Shown: positions 3,001 through 58,900 of the stretch, in pieces
How positions within the stretch are numbered: position 1 is the first letter of the stretch
Layout of the letters: every line of letters begins with the position of its first letter
NCBI RefSeq assembly: GCF_036588685.1
Contig: NC_086379.1
Span: 12,214,001-12,278,000 of the forward strand
Length of the DNA: 64,000 bases
Source of the DNA: Mytilus trossulus
Lineage: Eukaryota
Direction: 5' to 3'
Program-made: the position numbers and the translations under genes
The notes under the pieces: model-generated
Told to the model about the DNA's origin: nothing
What the model saw: only the letters and a program-made list of their open reading frames with translations
Database searches by the model: none

Positions 3001-6000
3001 TGGGAGAATCAGTATCATGAAAGAAATAGACCGAGAAGAATTTCAAACTATCACAATACGAGTAAGAGCTACAGATATTACTGAAAGGGACATTACTGTT
3101 GATTGTGACAATACTCCTGATATGGTCTCAAATACAACTGAAATGGATGTTAAAATAACAATACTTGATCAGAATGATAACCCGCCACAGTTCAACAGTA
3201 CTTTCATCTCTAGAGGAATCAGAAGAACTGTCAATCTCAATACATTGATCATTGACTTGAAGGTTAATATAAGACGAAATTATTAATTTGAGATCTGGTG
3301 GTGATATAATATTGTAATATGACAATTAGTGTGTAATACTAGTATACTAAAAAAATCATTTAAAATGAGTTATACAAGATAGGCCGACAATTTCATGTTA
3401 TCACTTAAATTCGTCTTCAGTCATATTCAGATTTTTGTATAAACAGGGTACCTGAAAAATCCCCATAATATCATGCCATAGATAAATTGATGGATGGATA
3501 GATTCATTTACCTTTGGTATTTCAATGCCAGTTTTGGGCTATTTCGTGGCGGTCAGTATTTAGTGGTAAGGAAAGCCGCAGTGTCCGTAGAAAACCACCG
3601 ACCTTTGATAAAAACTAACAATCCTAATCAATTAGGATTGGCCTTGAATGCACCTGCATGAGCTGGATTCGAACGTACAACCTCAGTGTTGACTGACTAG
3701 TGCTAGTCAAACAATTAATTAAAAGGTCCATGCTTGAGCGGGGGTCAAATTAAAAAAAAACAGCGTTTCATAGACTACTATAAACATTAAGAAAACATTG
3801 ATTAAACGTGAACAAAAGGACTATTGTAAAATCATTTTCTTCTGTTGATTTTGAGAAGGTAAAGAAGTTATCCGATATCCCGGTATATCCGTCTTGACAC
3901 ACCCTTTTTGTGCCATTTAGACAATCATCCTTAATGAACCGACGGAAATGCACATACAAGTCTACAGGTATTCTTTGGTTCGTCGGCAAGAAGAAAGACT
4001 CCTATTGTATAATTTGAAGTTTTTAAGTCAATCAATCGAAATGAATTTCAAAGTGTTGCGTGTTTATCGGGTCTAATATGTGAAGGACATTATTAAATTT
4101 CAGATTTATTTTGAGATGTGAATCTCGTTGTATTTTGAAATATTTACATTTGTTTAAATTTATGCTGATTGATCCTTAACCTGATTGTTCATTAGTTTTA
4201 ATTAATGTGTGGTTCGTTTGATCTCAGTTAAAATTCCATAACGACGTCAAACACTTTTGCTTTTCTCTAAATTTCATATTTTGACGTCTAACTAACGGCA
4301 ACCCTGCCTTATTACGTCATACAGAACAAACACATCTTTTTGCAGATCATTCCGAAATTATTTTTTTTTTAAATTGTCTGCATATCGTCTGTAAATTATT
4401 AGAGAAACATGCAAACTCTCGTGAAAAACGATTAGTATCCACTGTATACAGTTCATTTTGTAAACATTTTAAACGCTCGACAAGCTTCGAATTTTGAATT
4501 GGAAAATATTGCTGTGACATGTGTATAAATATCTTATCACACTGTATGTCTCTGCATATCTTCCACCTACAAATAAGTTGAAAATGATAAGTTTAACCCA
4601 TTTGTTAAACTGTTAATTAGAGCATATCTATGTTGTAGACTACTGTTAATCCAGATCCTGATCTAGGGGAAAATGCAGTACATGGGTTTGCATTCAACGG
4701 TGATATTACTTTTTCTAGTTCGGATTTGAAAAATAAAATTCTACAAACAAAGGTTGGCCAGTGCCCAGATAAACGGGATGGCAGTGCTGCGTGTATCACA
4801 TCCAATGGAACATTGTCAACGAATATCTTGTTTGAAGAAAATATGAAAGGATATCTTTTGATACCATTGGTTGCAACAGACGCTGCTGGGAATAGTACTA
4901 CAACTTTGAAGGTAGATACTAGTTATATTTATTTTGTTTATACAACTTTTCTAAATTTATTAGGGCTTGATATACTCCAGACAAACACGTGCACGTATGT
5001 CGTTAATGATTCTTTAGTATTGTGATGTTGTCTTTCAATTGCCTTTTTAGTTATATATGTTTTAATACTAGAAAATATAATTTAATTTGAAGTCTTAATC
5101 TGGTGGTATATGGCGATGGGGGAGTAGATAGATTTCTCTAATTGACCAGTTGTTCTTCCGTACTATCTTCAATTTCTCTATCCAACTTGTGTATCCGGAA
5201 CTGCTATTGAATCACTTGACAAAAACATAAATCTTTCACAGTAACCGTATCACATGGAAACTGAATCATTTTTGTTTATTCTGTGATGGCATATCAATTG
5301 AATCCGCCATTTGCCACACTATCGGAAAGATTTACATCTGCTTATTTTCTTTTCTGTTATCCCCAATGCTAATTTACAAATTATCAACTTTACTCAGAAT
5401 TTGTACCATATTATATCATAGTACACATATTTTCTGTAGAGACATGTTTTGGTTTACCAAAATATTACCATTGCTTTATTTATGGCTAAAAACCTCCTCA
5501 TTTTAATTTGTTTATATTTTTTAACGATAGTGACCCTTGAAGGTCATTGTACACCTCCTGTGTTGTGTGTTATTCCAAATTATGTTTGAGTTTTTTCTCA
5601 GTCCATTTTGTATCTGTTAGTCATCCTGAATTCCTAAGAAATTGTTTTTTATCTATTTGTATCAGAATAGTTATCAAAGATACCAGCATTATAATTTAAT
5701 ACGCCAGACGCGCGTTTCGTCTACATAAGACTTATCAGTGGCGCTCATATCAAACTATTTATAAAGCCAAACAAGTACAATGTTGAAACGTATTGAGGAT
5801 CCAAAATTTCTAAAAAGTTGTGTCAAATACGGCTTCGGTAATCTATGCCCGGAATAAGACAAGCCTTAGTTTTCGAAAATTCAAAGTTTTGTAAACAGGA
5901 AATTTATAAAAATGACCACATTATTGATATTCATGTCAACACCTTTTACAATTATGCACAACTGATTTTCAGTTTAAATTCAAATTAATGATTGTATAGT

Positions 6001-43954: not shown

Positions 43955-46900
43955 CTAATTCTTTTCCGACACTTCAGTCCCATTACGCCCCCATTCTCTG
44001 TTTCTGAGTTCAACTCTTCTAATTTTACCACTGACCGTCTTTGGCAACTGGTCCACAAATTCAATCTATAAAACATGTTTTTTTTCGTTTTTAACAGTGT
44101 GTTATATTGTAGGTACATTAATAGACATCAAGAAGTAGGGAACAAAACGGAATTACTAAAATGAGTAGCAAATTATTTATACACGATGTAAAATCGTAAC
44201 AAAAAAGGAACGAATAATCAATTTAAAAACTAATACAATATCATATAAGATAGAGTATTGGTACATATAATGGTTATCAAAGGTGACAGGCTTATAATCT
44301 GATACGCCAGACGTCCGTAATACCCTGTCGAAAACGAGAGAACATTGTCTTTCATTTGTTTGCTAAATGTTTGAAAAAGGTTAATAATTTCGAAAGAAAC
44401 GCTCATTGTTATAATTTCAAAATAAATTGATTAAATAAAAGTTTTTCACAATTATTCTTTGCCAAGCACTTAATGTCTTTATACATAGAAACACGCGAGT
44501 TTTCTATTAGACAAATATAGTTAAAAATAAAATATGCTATGTCTTCGATAAAATTGATTTCATTGTCTAGTACGACGTTATAATTACAGGTTTTGTCTTT
44601 AAAGTCGTCGGATTCAACTGAACTTAAGCAATGATTAATAATGTTTAAATAATGATGTACTGTTAAGCTGATTTATTGGTGCAATCGTTAATATGTACTT
44701 GTATAGTTCTTAAAGGTCTTGATCACAATATGCCTTAGTCTATTATATTTAGTTTTTTAAACAAACATGATATTCCAAAACAGTTTCAAAATCTATTATG
44801 TACTCTCACAGATTTTAACTGATTAAGTGTGCTTACTTGGTTTATAAAAACGATTAAAATTGGATAATCGAATAGCGACGGATTTGTCATTTCAACGAGT
44901 GTGTCTTTGATAGAATGTGATCAATCTTGTGTCATGCGATCTCCTCGGTTTGTGTGTAACATTCATGTGTGTCTTCCTACTCAGCGTCTGAAACTACATC
45001 GATTTTGTGTGTTGCATTTGTGTTACTTGATTTGTCTGTTCTAACGTAGTGTCTGCGATTCCCTCGATTTTGTGTGTTACTTGATTTGTCTGTTCTTACG
45101 TAGTGTCTGCGATTCCCTTGATTTTGTGTGTAACTTGATTTGTTTGTTCTTACGTAGTGTCTGCGATTCCCTCGATTTTGTGTGTAACTTGATTTGTTTG
45201 TTCTTACGTAGTGTCTTCGATTCCCTCGATTTTGTGTGTAACTTGATTTGTTTGTTCTTACGTAGTCTCTGCGATTCCCTCGATTTTGTGTGTTACTTGA
45301 TTTGTCTTTTCTTACGTAGTGTCTTCGATTCCCTTGATTTTGTGTGTAACTTGATTTGTTTGTTCTTACGTAGTGTCTGCGATTCCCTCGATTTTGTGTG
45401 TAACTTGATTTGTTTGTTCTTACGTAGTGTCTGCGATTCCCTCGATTTTGTGTGTAACTTGATTTGTTTGTTCTTACGTAGTGTCTGCGATTCCCTCGAT
45501 TTTGTGTGTAACTTGATTTGTATGTTCTTACGTAGTGTCTGCGATTCCCTCGATTTTGTGTGTTACTTGATTTGTCTTTTCTTACGTAGTGTCTTCGATT
45601 CCCTTGATTTTGTATGTAACTTGATTTGTCTGTTCTTACGTAGTGTCTGCGATTCCCTCGATTTTGTGTGTAACTTGATTTGTTTGTTCTTACGTAGTGT
45701 CTGCGATTCCCTCGATTTTGTGTGTAACTTGATCCGTCTGCTCTTACGTAGTGTCTGCGATTCCCTCGATTTTGTGTGTTACTTGATTTGTCTTTTCTTA
45801 CGTAGTGTCTTCGATTCCCTTGATTTTGTGTGTAACTTGATTTGTTTGTTCTTACGTAGTGTCTGCGATTCCCTCGACTTTGTGTGTAACTTGATTTGTT
45901 TGTTCTTACGTAGTGTCTGCGATTCCCTCGATTTTGTGTGTAACTTGATTTGTTTGTTCTTACGTAGTGTCTGCGATTCTCTCGATTTTGTGTGTTACTT
46001 GATCCGTCTGCTCTTACGTAGTGTCTGCGATTCCCTCGACTTTGTGTGTAACTTGATTTGTTTGTTCTTACGTTGTGTCTGCGATTCCATCGATTTTGTG
46101 TGTAACTTGATTTGTTTGTTCTTACGTAGTGTCTGCGATTCCCTCGATTTTGTGTGTAACTTGATTTGTTTGTTCTTACGTAGTGTCTGCGATTTCCTCG
46201 ATTTTAACGTGTTACATTGATGTGTCTCTTCCTAAGCATGGTCTGCGATTCCCTTACATTTAATTTGTAGTTTACTTTGATGTGTCTCTACCTGGGCAGC
46301 GTCTCGTCTTGCTCTTTTAAGCTGGGATCTAATTATAATGGGCATGTAATCTATTGCTTGGTTGTCTTTTATCACAAGCCCAGTAATCAGCACTTTTTGT
46401 GCTAACATGAATTATAATTGATATGGTTTTATTTATAACTTTACAAATTTTTGAATTTTTTGAAATGCTAAGGCTTTTCTACGTCCGGCATAGATTACCT
46501 TAGCTGTATATGGCAAAACTTTTAGGAATTTTGGTTCTCAATGCTCTTCAACTTCGTACTTTATTTGGCCTTTTTAACTCTTTTGGATTCGGGCGTCACT
46601 GATGAGTCCTTTGTGGACGAAACGCGCGTCTCGTGTATATACTAAGTTTAGTCCTGGTATATATGATGAGTTTATTTAGTCATTTTAATCACCATATTAT
46701 ATAAATACTTTTTTTTCTATTTAACTTATTTGATTTCTAGCATGAACGTAAAGTTCAGTTGTAAGTTTTACCTTTCTTGGATATTTATAAGGAGCTGTGA
46801 CAGATTTTACATGGTTCTGTAGTTCTAGTCTTAACTTTTCTTTGTCGTGTTTGGAATATTGCTCTGTTAGAATTACAAATGCTTTTACTACCTACAATAT

Positions 46901-49900
46901 ATCACAAGAGAATTTGTGTGTTTAAAAAGTTATTAAAGTAAGTGAAAAATGTCATAATAAAACCTTTAAGCATCACATGTTCATGATGTTGTCATAATTG
47001 TGAAATTGTAAAATGTACATTAGACAACATCCGATATCGATTAATATACGATACATTATAATAGAAGAAATCTATTTTTTGTTTAACTGTCAGTAGACAA
47101 AACAAGTTCAATGTTTCAAAGCATCAGTTTGCAAAATAATTTACATTATTTTTAACAACATAAAAACGTAGGATTTATTTATGTGTCTTCAACATATGCG
47201 GGATTTTCTCGCTACATTGGAGACCTGTTGAACATTATTTGTTGGTGACCATCTGCTGTTGTTTTTTCTATGGTCGGGTTGTTGTCTCTTTGACACATTC
47301 CCCATTCCCATTTCCAATTTTATTTCTTGAAATTAGAATTTTATATACCTCTCCTCTTACATCATCCGGGCTGCTTACTACTGCCGATTCCAGAACTGCT
47401 GGATGTTCAATCAATGCACTCTCAACTTCAAAAGGACCTATTCGATAACTAAAGACAACATGTTTTTTTTTAAAACTGCAATATATACTTGTACTAATTA
47501 AAATCTTAAGTTCATTTGTATAGACCGACCATACGGTTTCTTTGTGTTTTTTTGTCTCATTGTTGAAACCCGTACAGTTGCCGTATTTGCTTACATCCAC
47601 TTGATTTGAACTTAAGGGACTAGTTCCTGACGTTATCTCATTGGCTAATATACCACTCCTCTTTATTGTTATATCAAAACAGATTCATTGCTATATCAGT
47701 TGATTCAAATAACTTTTACGATTAATAGAGTGACCAACTTGGCTCAAGCATTTTAAATAAAATAATCCTCATATCCCCTATAAAAAGACATTATTTTTAC
47801 TTGATTCATACATACCCAGAGGACAACATGACATCATCATCACGTCCAATAAACCAAATGTAGTCATCTTCATCCATTTTCCCACGGTCACCAGTTAAGT
47901 AAAAGTCACCTTTAAAGACAGCTTTATTTCTGTTATCATCATCCTGCAACAATTTAAGGCAAATTGTTTGTAATTCAGTTTGTTACCATTGGCATATAAA
48001 TGTATGTCCTTTACATAAGTGTACATGAATGATCCATATACAAAACCGTTTTACAAAAATATGGAGCGTCAAGGTAAGTTCGGTTAAACGGAAGTTCATA
48101 AAACCTGACGTAACAAAACGTTAGACTATATCAACCAACGAACAGATAGAAAAACTAGTCATGTACACATTTGCATAAACAACTGACTGAAAACGTTCTC
48201 AAAATTAGATACATTAGACAGCTGATATCTTGCTTTTTCTGAAAAATAAGTAACACCAATTTTTTTTTTAAAGTTACTCTCTAAAAAGATTGAATAGATT
48301 AAAATACAACCTAAAATGCAAAAATAAAATATTCTTTTGTGATGTCACCATGTTGTTGCAAATGGTCAGATAAACTCCCCATGAAGCAGCAGCTTACCTA
48401 ATTATAAATTACATTAGATTAACAAAAATACGAAAAACAAGATCCATATGTAGCAGCATTAGATAAGATTATACTTTACGTTCTGTTTTACCTAAAAGGA
48501 CATGGTAGAAGGGGTTTTGCATGGATTATGCATGGAAAATTAAATTTTGTGTGATTAAATAAGAATAGAATATCGAAATAATTGAGAGATAAGAAAAAGA
48601 TTAAATGGGGTCATCTTTTTTTTTAGCTGAATAAAAAAACTAAGAAATTCTATTATTTGAGTTATCTAGCTCTCCTACTATCTGATTATTCTCAACTTAT
48701 GGGGAAAATTTCTTACACATAAGTTACATACTACTCTCAAAATTTGTACATTTCATGAAAGATCTAGACCAAGTGTTATCGTTTATTTCAAAATCCAAGA
48801 TAGCGGAAAACACACCAGATAATTAAAGTCGATTTTAACCTAATTTATACTTATTTTTAACACTAATAAAAAAAAAACTGTCACCATAAAGATGCTCAAC
48901 TTCATATTATGTCGAAATCAATATCTAAATTTGTGCACTTTAGATCCTGGTATTATAGTTTAAGGGATATTGGAAATTTACTTTGGGGGATTGCAATTTG
49001 ATAATACAGACTCTTTATCGTTTCAATTTGATGTATAAAACAAAAAATAGTATGTAACATAGATATAGAAACAATAAAACGTTAATAACACAAAAAATAA
49101 AATTTCTCAGTCATACAATATTATTGTACATTTATATTTTAATAAGTGCCAATTATTCTACTTATCATTAATACAACATGGTATTATTACTTACGACGTA
49201 ATGGGAAAACAATCCCATTGGTCGAACAGGCTTTACTCTTACACCAATCACACCTTCTATGTTTCGAGGTAACACATTGCCATCATTGTCGACTATCTAC
49301 AAGAACATTATTTCAAATGATCGAATGCTAGTACATTGTACTTAATGACTGTATTAAATCGTCACCATTGTATCAAATGTGAATGTCTACCATATTCGCA
49401 AAGAATCAACCAACAACTATTTCATGTGTTGCTGTTTTTTCTTGTACGTCATAGGTGTTTTTTTGGGGGGGTTTTTTGGTTCTTTTTTTTAATAGCTTTG
49501 TTTTTTGTTTTCGATCAATTCTGTTGTCCTTCAAATTAGAATGTGAGATGGCTTTACAAATGAAAACAACACATTAGATAATTTCATGCATACGAAGCGC
49601 TTTTTATCGACTTGTTCCCTCTAAATCGAATATTTAAAAACCGAAATAACTTTTTGAAGTTCACAGGAATATTTCATGTTTTTACGCAATTAACCATCGA
49701 TTATGAACTTTGATTGTTTTGGAAAACTTTGTGGTGTAAAGAACACACAATTTGATAAATTCTTAACGTGGAAATACCGAAACTAGAAGTTTTTGTTGCG
49801 TATCGTAGAAGACTGCTGTGTAATGTTCTCATAGGTTTATGAAAGTTTTTCATTTTGTTTGATCATAAATATAAGAAATAAAATTGAGAATGGAAATGGG

Positions 49901-52900
49901 GAATGTGTCAAAGAGACAACAACCCGACCAAAATAAAAAAACACAACAGCAGAAGGTCACCAACAGGTCTTCAATGTAGCGAGAAATTCCCGCACCCGAA
50001 GGCGTTCTTCAGCTGGCGCCTAAACAAATATATACTAGTTCAGTGATAATGAACGCCATACTAATTTCAAATTGTACACAAGAAACTAAAATTTAAATAA
50101 TACAAGACTAACAAAGGCCAGAGGCTCCTGACTTGGGACAGGCGCAAAAATGCGGCGGGGTTAAACATGTTTGTGAGATCTCAACCCTCCCCCTATACCT
50201 CTAACCAGTGTAGAAAAGTAAAAGCATAACAATACGCACATTAAAATTCAGTTCAAGAGAAGTCCGAGTCTGATGTCAGAAGATGTAACCAAAGAAAATA
50301 AACAAAATGACAATAATACATAAATAACAACAGACTACTAGCAGTTAACTGACATGCCAGCTCCAGACTTCAATTAAACTGACTGAAAGATTATGATTTC
50401 ATCATATGAACATCAGGCACAATCCTTCCCGTAAGGGGTTTAGTATCATACCATCATAACATATATGAGAAGAACATAACCCGTGTCATGCCAACAACTG
50501 TTTTTAGAATAAATGTGTTTAGTTCCGACGCAAAGACCTTATCAGTGACTCAATATTAACTCCAAAATATGCAATCTTTAATGACTTGACAACAGTATCG
50601 TAATTATATCCCTTCTTAATAAGTCTATTCAAAGGTTTTGTAAGTTTATGAGGTGAATACTGACACCTTTGTGCTTTATAAAGAATATTTCCATAAAAAA
50701 TTGGATGTGAAATACCTGAACGTATAAAAAGTCTGCATGTTGAGCTATATTTACGAATGATGTCTTTATACCGATGATAAAATTTAGTAAATGTTTTGAC
50801 TAGTTTGTGATATCGAAAACCCTGGTGTAATAATTTTTCAGTAATACATAAATTTCTCTCGTTAAAATCTAAAACATTGTTACATACACGAGCGAATCGT
50901 ACAAGTTGAGATATATAAACACCGTAAGATGGTGACAAGGGAACGTCACCATCTAAAAACGGATAATTAACGATAGGAAATGAAAAATCATCCCTTTTAT
51001 CATAAATTTTAGTATTCAGCTTTCCGTTAGTGATATAGATATCAAAATCGAGGAAAGGGCAGTGGTCATTGTTAGTATTAGCTTTATTTAAAGTGAGTTC
51101 ACCAGGATAAATTTCATTAATATACATACTGAAGTCGTCATTATTGAGAGCCAAAATATCATCCAAATATCTAAAAGTATTATTAAATTTGTTTATCAGA
51201 TGTTGTTTTGACGGGTCTTTGCTTATTTTTGTCATAAATTGTAACTCGTAACAATACAAAAAGAGGTCCGCAATAAGTGGTGCACAGTTAGTCCCCATTG
51301 GAATTCCGATAATCTGACGATATACGGAATCCCCAAAGCGAACAAAAATGTTATCTAGTAAAAATTCAAGGGCATATAAAGTATCAAAGCATGTCCAATT
51401 AACATAGTTTTTTTGTTTATTGCTACTAAAAAATGACCTAAAAGAGTTTGAACATATATATTCACATTCTGATTTTTTGAATGCCCATTTAATTAGGTGT
51501 GTGAATTTTTTCTTAATGAGAATGTGAGGCAATGTGGTATACAGGGTAGAAAAATCAAAACTTTGAACAGATTCAAAATCACCAATATAAGCATGCAATT
51601 TATCAAGTACTTCCAACGAGTTCTTGACACTCCAAAAGTAATTTATTCCACTATTTTCGAAGGCCTTATTTGAACAATTTATTATAAGGTTTTTAATTGT
51701 ACCAAGTGTGCTGGTAAGAATAATAGACAATTTAGTAGTTGAACAATGGCTTGAAGACGAAATAAATCTATATTTGTAAGGGGTTTTGTGTAGCTTCGGA
51801 AGCCAATACATAGTTGGAACTTTCATTGTATTTGGCTCTGCTTGTAAAGCGGTGGCTAAAAGTTTATGTTTGTTACAGATTTCGTTTTCTGAAAATGGAG
51901 TCAGTTGGAATGTTGGTGAATTGGTGATTTCCTTTTTCAGAACCTCGATGTAAAATTTACGTCAAACAATAATAATATTATTAGCAGCTTTATCGGCCGG
52001 GACAAAAACAAATTCCTTGGCTAGTTCTTTTAGTTTATGTTTGATACGAGAAATAGGTTTATTGTGGTTATTGTTAATAGTAAAATGTTCTTTAAAATGT
52101 TGAATACGTATATCAACTATCTTCATTACTGAATTAAAAAAAGAGTCCAAAGATTTTTTGTCAGCTTTTTCCCGTTTTATCCATTTCATACAGTAAGTAT
52201 GAAGTGAGTCGTGGATGATATTACGACACTCATTCCAATTAATAATTGACGGGGGACGATATTTAGGTCCTTTACTGAGAAATGATTTTAACTCTCGGTC
52301 TTGAACGATGTTAAGATCTCCTGTTATAACATGGGAAATGGGTCCATAAATATATTCGGAATTACTGCAATTACATGAAGTAGGTGTATTTTCACTGATA
52401 TTAACATCTTTACACAATTGACTATAATTAAACACAAATTTCCGGGTAGATTTCTTATAAATATAACAAATAAGAGGTAGCTCAGTATTGTCAAAATATC
52501 CAGGAATTTGTTCTTTAACAGAATGGTCGTTAAATATACCGGCAATATTTACAAAATCAAAGCCTTTATTGACATACTTAATTTTAATAAAATGTTTTTT
52601 ATGATCTTCAGGGCGATCAATTTTGGGAAATAATTTAGAATAACAATATGCCATAATAATTTGAACAATTTCATACTTAGGACTGCTATATGAAATTGTG
52701 TTGCAATCCTCCAAAATTTTATTTAACTTATTAACCGGTAACGAACAGAGTTTTGTTAACAGATAATGTCTGCCGTTGTTTTTTGAAATAGAAATTAGGT
52801 CCGAAATATTGGTATGATTGGCCCGAAATTTTCTTTGATTGCGATTTGTTCTACAACCGTGAGAACGGTTTTTACGAACAGTTTTAGAAACAATATCCAA

Positions 52901-55900
52901 AATGTTAACGGAATTGGTTCTAGATATATTACCAATTCCCATGATATTATCATTTAGACCGAGAGGGTAAACTGTCTGTAATTTTTTAATCCAATTTAAT
53001 TCAATTATTTTCCGTGATCGTACAAACTTTGAATGCGATTCACCAGGCTGCTTATTTACTACTTCTAAAGGTTGAACTGCTAAATATTTAAAAGGATGGT
53101 TGTGCTTCTTAAGGTGTTGGTAAATGATACTTTTGAATTTATTAGGTCTTTTAAAACGATACAGATGTTCTTGAGTGCGTTTTGATAAATATCTTCCAGT
53201 TTCTCCTACGTACTGAATACCACATCCCGGTTTGTTTCATGTGAGTAAATAAATAATACTGTTTGTTTTTCAAGTAATATCAGTTTCAAAATTTAAAGAA
53301 AATGTGCGACCATTAAACGTGGACCTTACCGTATTGTTGGTGGAAAGACGGGGACATGTAAGTCATTTTTTGGCATGACACTTATCGATAGAAGGGTAAC
53401 CACGATTTTTATTGTTAAAAATGTTAGCGATGGTAGTATTTTTAGATAACCGATTTTGAAAATTGAGACGTGTAGATACCCTTTGAACAAGTTTAGTATT
53501 TAGTATTTTTCCGTTTCTTAGTTTCATAATTGTTTTGTTGGTGAATTACATAATAAAGGAGCAAAGATTGGCGTCCAGAATATGAACCAGCATACAATAA
53601 TTAAGTTAAGTAAAAGTGATAAATTTGTTCGGCTGAAAATGTCGAACGCTATCAGCATTAATTACTAGTACCCGAAAAAGATAGTGTATATCAGGGTATG
53701 AAAGATAGTGTATATCAGGGTATGACTGATGGCTGACCAATTAGTAGAATGGGGCTGAATATTGAAATACTACTTTTTGATAAACATTCCTAAAGTAATG
53801 AACTAGAGCAGTTCTCGCCCGGACACACACTCCATAATCTAGTATATTATAAGAGCATAAACCTGAAGCACGGGGAGGCACTCTACTGCCTCCAAACGGC
53901 ACTAAAGACAAACTCTGTAAAAAATAAAATTGAGAATGGAAATGGGGAATGTGTCAAAGAGACAACAACCCGACCAAAATAAAAAAACACAACAGCAGAA
54001 GGTCACCAACAGGTCTTCAATGTAGCGAGAAATTCCCGCACCCGAAGGCGTTCTTCAGCTGGCCCCTAAACAAATATATACTAGTTCAGTGATAATGAAC
54101 GCCATACTAATTTCCAAATTGTACACAAGAAACTAAAATTTAAATAATACAAGACTAACAAAGGCCAGAGGCTCCTGACTTGGGACAGGCGCAAAAATGC
54201 GGCGGGGTTAAACATGTTTGTGAGATCTCAACCCTCCCCCTATACCTCTAACCAGTGTAGAAAAGTAAAAGCATAACAATACGCACATTAAAATTCAGTT
54301 CAAGAGAAGTCCGAGTCTGATGTCAGAAGATGTAACCAAAGAAAATGTCTTCTAAATATTTGATGTATCAAAAAGAGTACGCTTATTTATAATAACTTCG
54401 TAAAGTTAAGATACTCAGGACATTCTTGGATTATCTCCGTTTTATTTTAGATTACCGTATCTGGTTATTAATGCGGCTAGATTGTTTTCTCTTTTATCTA
54501 TACCTTCATTTATTTTATCACTATTGCTTATATTACGACTGACCTCTAGATCAATTCCAGGCGCTGCTTTCCCCATAGAACCTGGTCTTATTTCAACACA
54601 TGGATATGTCCCACATAAAAACGTCTGAAAGAAAAAAAAACAATTTAGACCAATAAAATTAAACCTAAAACAATCTTTTGGAAGTATAGGACGAACTGTA
54701 TATGAGTGTCTCATTGTCTTTACATTGTAAAACCTTTATGATGTTGATTCTAAATAAAACTTGCTGATTATATCAACACAATATCAATAACCATATACGA
54801 TGTTTGGAGTGAAAACTATGAAACATGTGTTTTGCGAAATATATTCTAGAGCTTAATAATACCTTAGCACAAAGTAATGAAAATGAATTCAAACTGTTGC
54901 AAATCTCTCATCAATGATTATTTTGGCTTTTCAATTTATTTAAATGTTTTTTGGATCGTCCTATTTTCTTCAAAAGCCAAAAAAATAATCATTTTCTCCT
55001 ATGTTCTATTTTAGCCATAGTAGCTATGTTTCTTGACATACAAGGAAATAAAATATAAAATTTATACTAAATACTCTGAAACTCATTTAGCCTAAGTTTG
55101 GCTGAAATTGATACAGCAGTTTCAAAGGAGAAGATTTTTTAAAGTAAGTCAACATGATGAACAAATTGCGAAAAAAGTCTATAAAGGGCAATAACTCCTT
55201 AAGGGGTCAATTGACAATTTTGGTCAAATTGACTTAATTGAAGATCTTACTTTGCTGAACATCATTGCTGTTTACAGTTTATTTCTATCTATAATAATTA
55301 TATTCAAGATTATAAACAAAAACAGCAAAATTTCCTTAAAATTATCAATTCAGGGGCAGCAACCCAACAACAGGTTGTCTGATTCATCTGAAAATTTCAG
55401 GGCAGATACATTGTAGATCTTGACCTGATAAACAATATAACCCCAGGTCAGATTTGCTCTAAATGCTTTGGTTTTTGAGTTATAAGCCAAAAACTGCATT
55501 TGACCCCTATGTTCTATTTTTAGCAATGGCGACCATGTTTGTTGATAGATCATAACTTCGGATACAATTTACAAACTAGATACCCTAAGGAACATTCAGT
55601 TAAAGTTTGGAAGTATTTGGCCCAGTAGTTTCAGAGGAGAAGAATTTTGTAAAAGATTTTCAAGATTTACGAAAAATGGTTAAAAATTGACTATAAAGGG
55701 CAAACACTCCTAAAGGGGTCAACTGACCATTTCCGTCATTTGACTTATTTGTAAATCTTACTTTGCTGAACATTATTGCTGTTTCCAGTTTATCTCTATC
55801 TATAATAATTTTCAAGATAATAACCAAAAACAGCAAAATTTCCTTAAAATTATCAATTCAGGGGCAGCAACCCAACAACAGGTTGTCTGATTCATCTGAA

Positions 55901-58900
55901 AATGTCAGGGCAGATAGATCTTGACCTGATAAACAATATAGCCCCAGGTCAGATTTGCTCTAAATGCTTTGGATTTTGAGTTATAAGCCAAAAACTGCAT
56001 TTGACCCCTATGTTCTATTTTTAGCAATGGCGACCATGTTTGTTGATAGATCATAACTTCGGATACAATTTACAAACTAGATACCCTAAGGAACATTCAG
56101 TTAAAGTTTGAAAGTATTTTACGTAGTAGTTTCAGAGGAGAAGATTTTTGTAAAAGATTACTAAGATTTACGAAAAATGGTTAAAAACTGACTATAAAGG
56201 GCAATAACTCCTAAAGGGGTCAACTGACCATGTCCGACATGTTGCCTTATTTGTAAATCTTACTTTGCTGAACATTATTCCTGTTTACAGTTTATCTCTA
56301 TCTATAGTAATATTCAAGATAATAACCAAAAACAGCAAAATTTCCTTAAAATTACCAATTCAGGGGCAGCAACCCAACAACGGGTTGTCTGATTCATCTG
56401 AATTTCAGGGCAGATAGATCTTGACCTGATCAACAATATTACTCCAGTCAGATTTGCTCTAAATGCTTTGGTTTTTGAGTTATAAGCCAAAAACTGCATT
56501 TGACCCCTATGTTCTATTTTTAGCAATGGCGACCATGTTTGTTGATAGATCAAAACTTCGGATACAATTTATAAATTAGATACCCTAAGGAACATTCAGT
56601 TAAAGTTTGAAAGTATTTGGCCCAGTAGTTTCAGAGGAGAAGATTCTTGAAATAGTTTACGACGACAGACGACGACAAACGACGGACGACGGACGACAGA
56701 CGACAGACGACAGACGACGGACGACGACGGACGCCAAGTGATAGCATAAGCTCACTTGTCCCTTCGGGACAGGTGAGCTAAAAAAGCTAATGTAATTTAT
56801 AATGAAAAATCTTACTGTTTCGGTTTGTCCGTAACCTTCATATAAATTCAAACCTGTACCATCATGCCATTCTTTAAGCAGTTCTGGGTTCTACAAAATG
56901 CATTTAAAACATCAATAGTTGCTTTCAATAAACAATATTTCTTTTTAAAAATTAACATTTCTGAACATTGTTGTAATCATTTGATGAGTTAAGCATTTCT
57001 TGACTGATTTTTATAGTTCTCCCTTTTGTTGTACTAGTACACCAAGGCGGGTTTAATCAGTCACATTCTCTAATTGTATGCCTGTCCCAAGTCAGGAGCC
57101 TATAATCCAGTGGTTGTCGTTTGTAGCTGTGTTACATTTTTGTGTTTCGTTCATTTTATTGTGCATATTTATGCCCTTAGTTTTCTCGTTTAAATTGTGT
57201 TACATTTGTCATATCAATGCATTTTAAAGCTGACTATGATATATGGGCTTTGATAATTGTTAAAGGCCGTGTACTGTGATCTACATTTTATGTCTGTGCC
57301 TTGTGAAGAGTTATCTTATTGGCAATCATACAACATCTTTTTTTTTTTGTATTTCATACATATCATATTTAAAGAAAAGGGATGTACGTATCAAACAATC
57401 TTTTTTAGTCGATTATACAAAATTTAAAAGTGTTCACAAGTGAAAAACCACCGTATCACGGATATGTTATATTTCTTCACGACTTGATGTATAATTTCTT
57501 AAATCTACGTCAGGTGGTCTCTGTGTTGTATTTGTTTCATTGACAATCATAACACGTTATCTTATTTTTATATTTTGATTATGCGCTTATTATTTATACA
57601 TTCCCTTTTTAAATTTGGTAAATTTTACGTACGCCATCACGAATTTTACTATCCGGGTTCGTAATAACACGTTTTCTATGTTATGTCTTGTGTACTTTTA
57701 TTTGTCTGTTTGTCTTTTTTTCATTTTTAGCCAGTTTCCATCTTTGAGTTTGAATGCCCCTCTAGTATCTTTCGCCCCTCTTTTATTGATAAGCATATTT
57801 TTTTTTAACTTACAACAGGTTCTCCAGCACCGATACAAAGTAACTTTTTCGATAAACTGTATCTGTGGAGTGGCTGTTTTACTAAATGTCTATACACAGT
57901 TGGTGGTGCACAAAAATTAGTAAGAGGGTACTTATCTAAAATCTGGAAAGGAAAATATAACCTATGTAATCACAGAACACACAATATTTTCCACATTTGA
58001 AGTATAAAAAAAAACAGATTATCTTAAATTTGACATTAATACAACATTTCCTTATTCGTATATCAATGGAAAGACGAATTCGGAAACAAGGAAGAAAATG
58101 GAAACTAGAAATTGCAATGAAATTTTTAAAAATAATAAACATGTAATAAGAGAATTTTAAAACAAAATAAACTATTCAGATATAGGGGAATATTTGTTCA
58201 CGTTCTCCCTGTCATATCTGATAAAGATTTAAATTGATGCATAATCGCTATACAGCAGACCCATATGGAAATGCTATATGTTTAATATTCGATCTTTATA
58301 TCACACCACCATCTAATTTTCTATTTCAAATCATGTACCTGTAGTGTTCTTTCTGGGTCAAACTTATCAGAGTTGTGAATAAAAATACAGGCTCCTCTGA
58401 TCCATGGTGCAAACAGACTAGTCCAAGCGGCTTTAGCCCACCCAGTATCAGACATATTCCACATCATACCATTATGGTCTATATTTAACATGTACCTTAG
58501 TAAAAACAACATTCCAGATAATTGTATGTAACATTTCAGTTTATCAAAATACATTTACACTGATAAAAAAAAAAGCTGAGTATTTAAAATTTCTGACTTT
58601 TCAAGTTTTCAAAGTTAATCTAATATCGCTAGAATGCATTTTATGTTTCTGATAGTTAACACAAACATGATGTGTATAACACATTTTGTTTTAAGATTAC
58701 CCGTGTCTTAACTATTCTAATTGTTTTAGATCTCATTTTTGAATTTCTGCGTGTTTAGTTTCATTTGCTCTTTAGATCTGATCGCTGGTGAAAGGGGAAA
58801 ATTTAGATCACATTACTTTGAAAACAAACCATCTAGTGCTAATCCTAGCATGGATTTAAAATTTTTACAGTTTGATACAATATGTTATTCAAAAATTAGA

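What the first reader, a model, noticed from the sequence alone, without database searches (positions are those of the whole stretch)
53204..53380. Three Sec residues cluster in the metal-binding/GIY-YIG N-terminus, including a UxxC motif
The translation gives C50-x4-U55-x2-C58 ... U86 ... I91IY ... U97-x4-C102 ... Y106VG. Sec occupies probable Zn-ligand positions around and inside the nuclease motif, and U55-L-T-C58 has the UxxC pattern of redox selenoproteins. Inference: selenolate-metal coordination or redox switching may control the endonuclease. Termination at the first UGAs would give only short peptides (an off switch), while termination at U522 would release an endonuclease-containing product without RT.
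Basis: inference. Interest (0 to 1): 0.7.

Follow-up and report, generated by a model that had tools for sequence, protein, structure and literature searches.

The report
Selenium zinc fingers in Naiad retrotransposon
Three UGA "stop" codons replace conserved zinc-finger cysteines in the DNA-cutting domain of a young, multi-copy jumping gene, so they are likely read as selenocysteine and likely bind metal rather than form a redox motif, a trick already published for related clam and spider elements.

Summary
The three TGAs lie at codons 55, 86 and 97 (a fourth at 522) of a 1002-codon minus-strand ORF of a Naiad Penelope-like retroelement with a SECIS-like hairpin behind the stop. At least 150 near-identical copies exist in the genome; 88-100 of 100 listed copies keep each TGA. 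Selenoprotein Naiads were described in 2021 (PMC8557442) with Sec at these same positions, including a UxxC in a spider element, and this scan has already noted this family on other DNA of the same genome. All four TGAs fall on conserved cysteines. U55 and U86 likely complete one four-ligand finger with C50/C58, U97 belongs to the CCHH finger, and U522 likely to a third site (C385/C387/H399). The 'UxxC' is the CxxC half of an older finger and Sec55 is the latest addition, so the redox-motif reading has no specific support; nor has a programmed 521-residue product. New here: Sec-Naiads form one large clade (dozens of families) with Sec moving among finger ligands, including C385. Sec insertion, metal binding and ligand distances are untested.

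The parts
49872..53917 (-). Main body of the Naiad element (about 4.05 kb)
   Evidence: Repeat boundaries; ORF
53918..54346 (-). Upstream partial tandem copy of the 3' end (pseudo-LTR), 99-100% identical to 49872-50299
50519..53527 (-). 1002-codon ORF: GIY-YIG endonuclease, CxC linker, reverse transcriptase; four in-frame TGA
53378..53380 (-). C50, first ligand of the CX4-CxxC finger (Sec in the two spider Naiads)
53363..53365 (-). TGA55 (predicted Sec), second ligand of the finger; the U of 'UxxC'
53354..53356 (-). C58, third ligand; never W/Sec in 127 aligned relatives
53270..53272 (-). TGA86 (predicted Sec), Cys before GIY; inferred fourth ligand of the first finger
53249..53257 (-). I91-I-Y93, the GIY half of the nuclease motif
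53237..53239 (-). TGA97 (predicted Sec), first Cys of the CCHH finger
   Evidence: PMC8557442 section 8
53222..53224 (-). C102, second Cys of the CCHH finger
53204..53212 (-). Y106-V-G108, the YIG half of the nuclease motif
53096..53116 (-). H138 and H144, the His pair of the CCHH finger (H138 in 143 of 147, H144 His or Cys in 127 of 141 aligned relatives)
52331..52375 (-). C385-x-C387 ... H399; inferred third metal site with residue 522
   Evidence: invariant in 28 of 28; C385, H399 and 522 equivalents invariant in 51 of 51
51962..51964 (-). TGA522 (predicted Sec), eight residues after the DKA motif
50403..50467 (-). SECIS-like hairpin 52 bases after the TAA stop (AUGA...AAA...GA, with apical mini-stem)
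   Evidence: Rfam SECIS_1 32.8 bits, E 0.0012, below the gathering score of 35; fold z -1.7

Best explanation
The three TGAs sit in an otherwise open, recently multiplied Naiad retrotransposon ORF at positions that are cysteine in its relatives, and they are likely recoded to selenocysteine by the element's own 3' SECIS, where they likely serve as metal (probably zinc) ligands of two structural fingers on the GIY-YIG endonuclease. Finger 1 is inferred as C50/U55/C58/U86, finger 2 as U97/C102/H138/H144; U522 is inferred to complete a third site with C385/C387/H399 in front of the reverse transcriptase. Shown: codons, conservation, copy number, fold class, SECIS-like hairpin, host tRNA-Sec. Inferred: Sec insertion, ligand sets, zinc as the metal. 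The catalytic residues (R117, H121, E176, N192) are not Sec. Selection keeps Sec at some ligand positions (above all 86) across a wide clade, so selenolate is probably a preferred ligand there; as a side effect full-length protein needs four recoding events, which would cap its output.
For: Positions 55/86/97/522 are Cys in 23/23, 25/26, 27/27 and 27/28 homologues. 4 of 4 TGAs on conserved Cys, p about 0.008. In 150 endonuclease relatives columns 86 and 97 hold only C or W, W being the expected reading of TGA by gene callers using code 4 (P0096, 94% identical to the window, shows W at 55/86/97). In Fig. S2 of PMC8557442 the Cys before GIY is present in 20 of 20 elements with the upstream Cys linker and 0 of 10 Penelope-like elements without it. 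AlphaFold model of residues 40-200: pLDDT 90, best match I-TevI GIY-YIG domain, Z 8.4, rmsd 2.5 over 90 residues; isolated strand bridges at 47, 61 and 84 fit a hairpin that brings 58 and 86 together (indirect). 19 W/U-bearing endonucleases form one clade with no all-Cys member, support 0.96, Cys columns masked. SECIS-like hairpin, two tRNA-Sec genes with UCA anticodon, RNA reads over the endonuclease region.
Against: No atomic distances were available from the models, so ligand geometry was not measured; no metal or Sec was observed. The SECIS scores below Rfam's gathering cut-off (32.8 against 35) and folds only weakly better than shuffles (10 of 200 as good). Sec has reverted to Cys at 97 (P0190, P0162) and at 522 (P0002, P0003, P0136) in relatives, so Sec is not indispensable at those sites. 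Codon 55 decays more often than the others in genomic copies (12 of 100, none to Cys). The paper itself calls the CX2-5CxxC zinc-finger label tentative.
Confidence: 0.68

Rival explanations
1. The Sec residues form a redox switch: oxidation of selenolate ligands (for example a U55-C58 or U55-U86 bond) ejects the metal and turns the endonuclease off or on, so transposition follows the cell's redox state.
For: Sec is held at position 86 in 19 of 19 clade members although TGA to TGT/TGC is one base away, so it does something Cys does less well. Two Sec in one finger allow a diselenide. A plant GIY-YIG nuclease (AtGRXS16) is reported to be restrained through a disulfide (passage in review PMC5890173), and its domain is among the fold matches (2lwf, Z 4.4).
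Against: The CxxC predates Sec and is plain Cys in most relatives; Sec55 is confined to a sub-branch of 5 of 19; Sec positions wander over six ligand positions (50, 55, 86, 97, 385, 522), which fits a general ligand preference better than one catalytic pair; no thioredoxin-type strand-CxxC-helix in the model.
Confidence: 0.15
2. The UGAs are mainly a translational throttle: four recoding steps limit full-length protein and tie it to selenium supply or to tissues with strong Sec machinery; Sec is merely tolerated at the ligands.
For: Any multi-UGA message behaves so (established knowledge). Total UGA number stays at 3-5 while positions shift (385 against 522). The first downstream Met is residue 196, past the nuclease core, so early termination removes the endonuclease.
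Against: A throttle would not need conserved ligands: 0 of 20 poorly conserved Cys are TGA here, and in 9 code-4-type translations W replaces the window's Cys only at 55, 86, 97, 385 and 522. All-Cys Naiads are abundant without it.
Confidence: 0.12
3. Termination at UGA522 is programmed and releases a free endonuclease-linker protein without reverse transcriptase that has its own role.
For: 38 of 65 homologous gene calls end exactly at residue 521 over 40-98% identity, so a stop-type codon there is widely kept.
Against: Residue 522 is an invariant Cys in all-Cys Naiads; the two nearest families (76-79% identical) have Cys522; 7 of 65 stop at 384 instead; the cut would fall at the end of a predicted strand and would break the inferred third site.
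Confidence: 0.04
4. The TGAs are true stops in a dead or non-autonomous element.
For: Sec insertion has not been observed; the SECIS is just under the Rfam cut-off.
Against: At least 150 copies 95-98% identical over the endonuclease, 143 of them with three or more TGA; rest of the frame intact; synonymous changes exceed non-synonymous 141 to 65; TGAs only on conserved Cys.
Confidence: 0.01

Closest known systems
Naiad_Mmer and Naiad_Scon, selenoprotein Naiads of clams (Craig et al. 2021, PMC8557442)
   Same: N-terminal GIY-YIG, Sec at the Cys before GIY, at the first Cys of CCHH (same U-x4-C spacing) and at DKA+8; SECIS behind the ORF.
   Different: The clam elements have Cys at 55; this one adds Sec55. 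SECIS lies 52 bases after the stop (1-21 in the paper) and has an apical mini-stem (paper: type I). Host is likely a mussel, where the paper lists only Cys-only Naiads.
Naiad_Sdum and Naiad_Smim, selenoprotein Naiads of spiders (same paper)
   Same: Naiad_Sdum has Sec at the second Cys of the finger, giving the same UxxC, plus Sec before GIY and at DKA+8.
   Different: Spiders have Sec at 50 and Cys at 97; the paper treats them as an independent origin, so Sec55 is likely convergent.
Cys-only Naiads (Naiad_Mgal, Naiad_Mcor, Naiad_Amil) and Neptune elements
   Same: Same CX2-5CxxC...C and CCHH ligands, as Cys.
   Different: No in-frame UGA, no SECIS reported; about 30-36% identical.
Thioredoxin-fold redox selenoproteins with UxxC/CxxU (SELENOP N-terminus, SELENOW/T/H/M; recalled)
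   Same: Only the four-letter spacing.
   Different: Different fold and setting: here a nuclease-attached finger with further distant ligands.

Membership tests
Naiad clade of Penelope-like elements | GIY-YIG endonuclease N-terminal to the RT, with R, H, E, N catalytic residues | tested here: met
   I-TevI, Z 8.4, rmsd 2.5, 90 aligned; telomerase RTs best, E 2e-10
Naiad clade of Penelope-like elements | CX2-5CxxC and CCHH finger motifs in the endonuclease | tested here: met
   C50-x4-U55-x2-C58; U97, C102, H138, H144
Naiad clade of Penelope-like elements | CxC motif, KR-rich block and DKA motif between endonuclease and RT | tested here: met
   C385-x-C387, D512-K-A514, basic stretch near 215-235
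Naiad clade of Penelope-like elements | Partial tandem (pseudo-LTR), 5' truncation, body 3.4-4.4 kb | tested here: met
   430-base 3' repeat at 4046-4047 spacing; exact pattern matches rise from 226 at codon 55 to 273 at 97 and 558 at 522
Naiad clade of Penelope-like elements | No canonical hammerhead ribozyme | tested here: met
   No hammerhead among 4 Rfam matches at E up to 5 in 48500-54500
Naiad clade of Penelope-like elements | Insertion-in-fingers domain in the RT | not tested
   Not examined separately
Selenoprotein-encoding Naiads | In-frame UGA at conserved cysteines | tested here: met
Selenoprotein-encoding Naiads | SECIS in the 3' UTR | tested here: met
   SECIS_1 full-length match, E 0.0012, core motifs intact, but 32.8 bits against a cut-off of 35; core kept in 7-8% diverged relatives
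Selenoprotein-encoding Naiads | Host Sec machinery | tested here: met
   Two tRNA-Sec genes, 79.6 and 77 bits, UCA anticodon; protein factors not searched
Selenoprotein-encoding Naiads | Selenium actually incorporated | not testable with these tools
   Needs labelling, mass spectrometry or ribosome profiling; not shown in the 2021 paper either (sections read)
Thioredoxin-fold UxxC redox selenoproteins | Motif between a beta-strand and the start of a long helix (recalled) | tested here: not met
   Residues 48-57 are coil, 58-60 a three-residue helix in both models
Thioredoxin-fold UxxC redox selenoproteins | Thioredoxin fold | tested here: inconclusive
   Top fold matches are GIY-YIG domains; an unlisted family is not formally excluded
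Structural zinc finger | Four co-conserved Cys/His ligands per site | tested here: met
Structural zinc finger | Tetrahedral geometry and bound zinc | not testable with these tools
   The models give confidence and secondary structure, no coordinates

The most novel reading that the evidence does not exclude
Sec-Naiads are a large clade of natural seleno-zinc-finger enzymes in which each of three metal sites carries one or two selenolate ligands, and these sites act as a sensor that couples DNA cutting and reverse transcription of the transposon to the host's selenium supply and redox state.
Probability: 0.2. Interest if true: 0.75.

Novelty: new member of a known kind. Interest (0 to 1): 0.4.

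Why it matters
Selenocysteine is nearly always a single catalytic residue; several Sec in finger-type metal sites of a transposon protein are an unexplained exception raised in 2021 from four consensus sequences. This family is young, intact and has hundreds of copies, so it offers a real substrate for asking what selenium does in a zinc finger. The wider survey suggests dozens of families, one origin, and Sec restricted to ligand positions, which turns the puzzle into a testable chemical question. It also explains why such elements are split or missed by gene callers. The basic phenomenon is published and was seen before in this scan, which limits the surprise.

Tried and rejected
Pfam does not recognise the protein or its domains at useful scores; a profile search of solved structures gave only I-TevI at E 0.31 and Foldseek nothing under 0.001 for the nuclease model; no thioredoxin-fold chain was listed, which is not proof of absence. 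A complex prediction of the CxC/His segment with the DKA/Cys segment of an all-Cys relative plus zinc gave no verdict (score 0.01, alignments not used). The idea that Leu55 copies are a propagating sub-family was rejected: 17 TTA copies scatter over several sub-families beside TGA sisters, as expected for a mutation hotspot after an A6 run. A-to-I editing of the UGAs: no difference at these codons among the 40 rows shown, 39 rows not shown, no DNA control; no support. A second Naiad family in the genome was sought with a distant relative as query, but the 150 scored hits were dominated by this family. A family search with a wrong accession told nothing. Paper searches for Naiad selenoproteins, for Mytilus with SECIS and retrotransposon, for bivalve transposable-element selenoproteins since 2021, and for structural work on Penelope fingers returned only the 2021 paper as relevant; two searches for natural Sec zinc ligands listed nothing on point (listings only). 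The library lacks most subscription journals.

Full report
Observation. The finding lies on the minus strand in an ORF from 53527 to 50519 that is open for 1002 codons once TGA is read through; TGA occurs at codons 55, 86, 97 and 522 and the frame ends in TAA. Under ordinary reading the frame breaks into 326- and 435-residue pieces. In 500 shuffles the longest frame free of TAA/TAG was 211 codons.

What the element is. The N-terminal part folds, in an AlphaFold2 model of residues 40-200 (pLDDT 90, 30 sequences, Cys for Sec), like a GIY-YIG nuclease: best match I-TevI, Z 8.4, rmsd 2.5 over 90 residues, then T4 EndoII and UvrC. The full-length model matches telomerase reverse transcriptases best. 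The 3' 430 bases are repeated upstream of the ORF. CxC and DKA motifs lie between the domains. These are the features of the Naiad clade of Penelope-like elements (PMC8557442; I read the abstract, results parts 1-2, passages of the discussion and five parts of the supplement). The genome has 1.3 Gb with 14 large contigs; earlier scan notes call it a mussel, and a Mytilus edulis protein record shares a short 84%-identical piece, so the host is likely a mussel; this is inference.

The family is young and the TGAs are its normal state. All 150 scored endonuclease matches are 95-98% identical; 143 show three or more TGA and 7 show two. Among the first 100 listed pattern matches TGA stands in 88 at codon 55 (of 226 matches), 100 at codon 86 (of 151), 96 at codon 97 (of 273) and 96 at codon 522 (of 558); one of these 400 is a Cys codon. 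The excess at codon 55 is TGA to TTA after an A6 run; 17 such copies are scattered over sub-families next to TGA sisters, so it looks like a mutation hotspot, not a spreading variant. Two outside relatives with 141 synonymous and 65 non-synonymous codon differences keep all four TGA; on its own this pair is too close to prove selection.

Recoding is likely. A full-length SECIS_1 match lies 52 bases after the stop (32.8 bits, E 0.0012, cut-off 35); its fold is only modestly better than shuffles (z -1.7). The genome has two tRNA-Sec genes with the UCA anticodon. RNA reads from three 2026 runs of a related organism cover the nuclease region; one of the three shows a 5-7 to 1 strand bias consistent with sense transcription, the other two show none, and there was no DNA control. 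Sec insertion itself is not shown.

Already known. The 2021 paper describes four selenoprotein Naiads. All have Sec at the Cys before GIY and eight residues after DKA; clams add the first Cys of CCHH; spiders add the first, or first and second, Cys of CX2-5CxxC. Naiad_Sdum therefore already carries a UxxC. The window's element combines the clam set with Sec55. The paper's Mytilus Naiads are Cys-only and clearly different. Earlier notes of this scan report four- and five-Sec Naiads in the same genome.

Are the Sec residues ligands? In 28 homologues positions 55, 86, 97 and 522 are Cys in 23/23, 25/26, 27/27 and 27/28 of those that cover them. Only 10 of the protein's 30 Cys/Sec positions are conserved at 80%, yet all four TGAs are among them (p about 0.008). 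In Fig. S2 of the paper the Cys before GIY is present in 20 of 20 elements that have the upstream Cys linker and 0 of 10 Penelope-like elements that lack it (one has a Cys two columns on; four homing-type rows do not cover the column). This co-occurrence makes residue 86 the likely fourth ligand of C50/U55/C58. Isolated strand bridges at 47, 61 and 84 around the 66-77 hairpin fit this, indirectly. U97 and C102 with H138 and H144 form the known CCHH motif. C385, C387, H399 and residue 522 are the most conserved Cys/His set outside the nuclease, and two C-terminal-nuclease elements inspected lack both the CxC-His and the Cys after DK, which suggests a third site. No coordinates were available, so none of these geometries was measured.

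A large clade. A search with residues 98-521 gave 65 proteins; 38 end exactly at residue 521 and 7 exactly at 384, at 40-98% identity, and 44 of these 45 begin after residue 97. The stop codons themselves were not seen. Other records show W where relatives have Cys, the expected result of gene calling with code 4; a 94%-identical record with W at 55, 86 and 97 calibrates this, but the codons of the others are inferred. Among 150 endonuclease representatives column 86 has 119 C, 19 W and 12 gaps, column 97 has 125 C, 15 W and 10 gaps, column 55 has 2 W and column 58 none. In a tree of 139 of 166 endonucleases (27 dropped for short or gapped alignment; the six Cys columns masked) all 19 W/U-bearing sequences form one clade without an all-Cys member (support 0.96), and the five with Sec55 form a sub-clade (0.996); several of the 19 are near-duplicates. 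So Sec86 is the constant, Sec97 and Sec522 are common but revert, Sec385 appears in some families (not reported in the sections of the paper I read), and Sec55 is a later gain, likely convergent with the spider element.

Metal coordination: likely right. UxxC as a redox motif: no specific support; it is half of an older finger, lies in coil, and its Sec is the least general one. Redox switching through the fingers stays open, and a plant GIY-YIG nuclease under disulfide control is a precedent (passage in PMC5890173). Early termination as an off switch follows for any such message; the next Met is residue 196. A programmed 521-residue product is unlikely because the nearest families have Cys522 and others stop at 385.

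Verdict. A real feature and a new member of a published kind. The useful additions are the four-ligand assignment, the proposed third site, the breadth of the clade and the restriction of Sec to ligand positions. Interest 0.4.

Noticed in passing
proteins P0101, P0109, P0112, P0113, P0115, P0127, P0140 (end at residue 384); P0065, P0074, P0077, P0106, P0136 (W at 385): Related families appear to carry a further UGA at the first Cys of the CxC motif, a Sec position not reported in the sections of the 2021 paper that I read; some of them have Cys at 522 instead.
   Followed up: partly
window 53363-53365; loci L044-L060: Codon 55 mutates TGA to TTA repeatedly (17 copies, several sub-families) directly after an A6 run; far more often than the other three TGAs.
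   Followed up: yes
window 53362-53381 (minus strand): UGA55 sits in a short inverted repeat (GTCAT...ATGAC) that could form a small hairpin in the message; no test of a role in recoding.
   Followed up: no
window 47197-47335: An older, inverted fragment of the same element's 3' end (88-94% alike), 2.5 kb downstream of the element.
   Followed up: no
window 53396-53658 (minus strand): Six short upstream ATG frames in the 390 bases before the main ATG; one of 44 codons, one ending 24 bases before the start.
   Followed up: no
window 53677-53724: A 24-base tandem duplication in the 5' leader that most other copies lack.
   Followed up: partly
window 44913-46346 and 55171-56713: A 54-base tandem array and a roughly 500-base repeat in three copies flank the element at a distance.
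   Followed up: no
G000:C10:63.84-63.86 Mb and 64.46-64.49 Mb: Tandem arrays (about 900-base period) of a tRNA-like sequence scoring 45.9 bits against the tRNA-Sec model, just under the cut-off.
   Followed up: no
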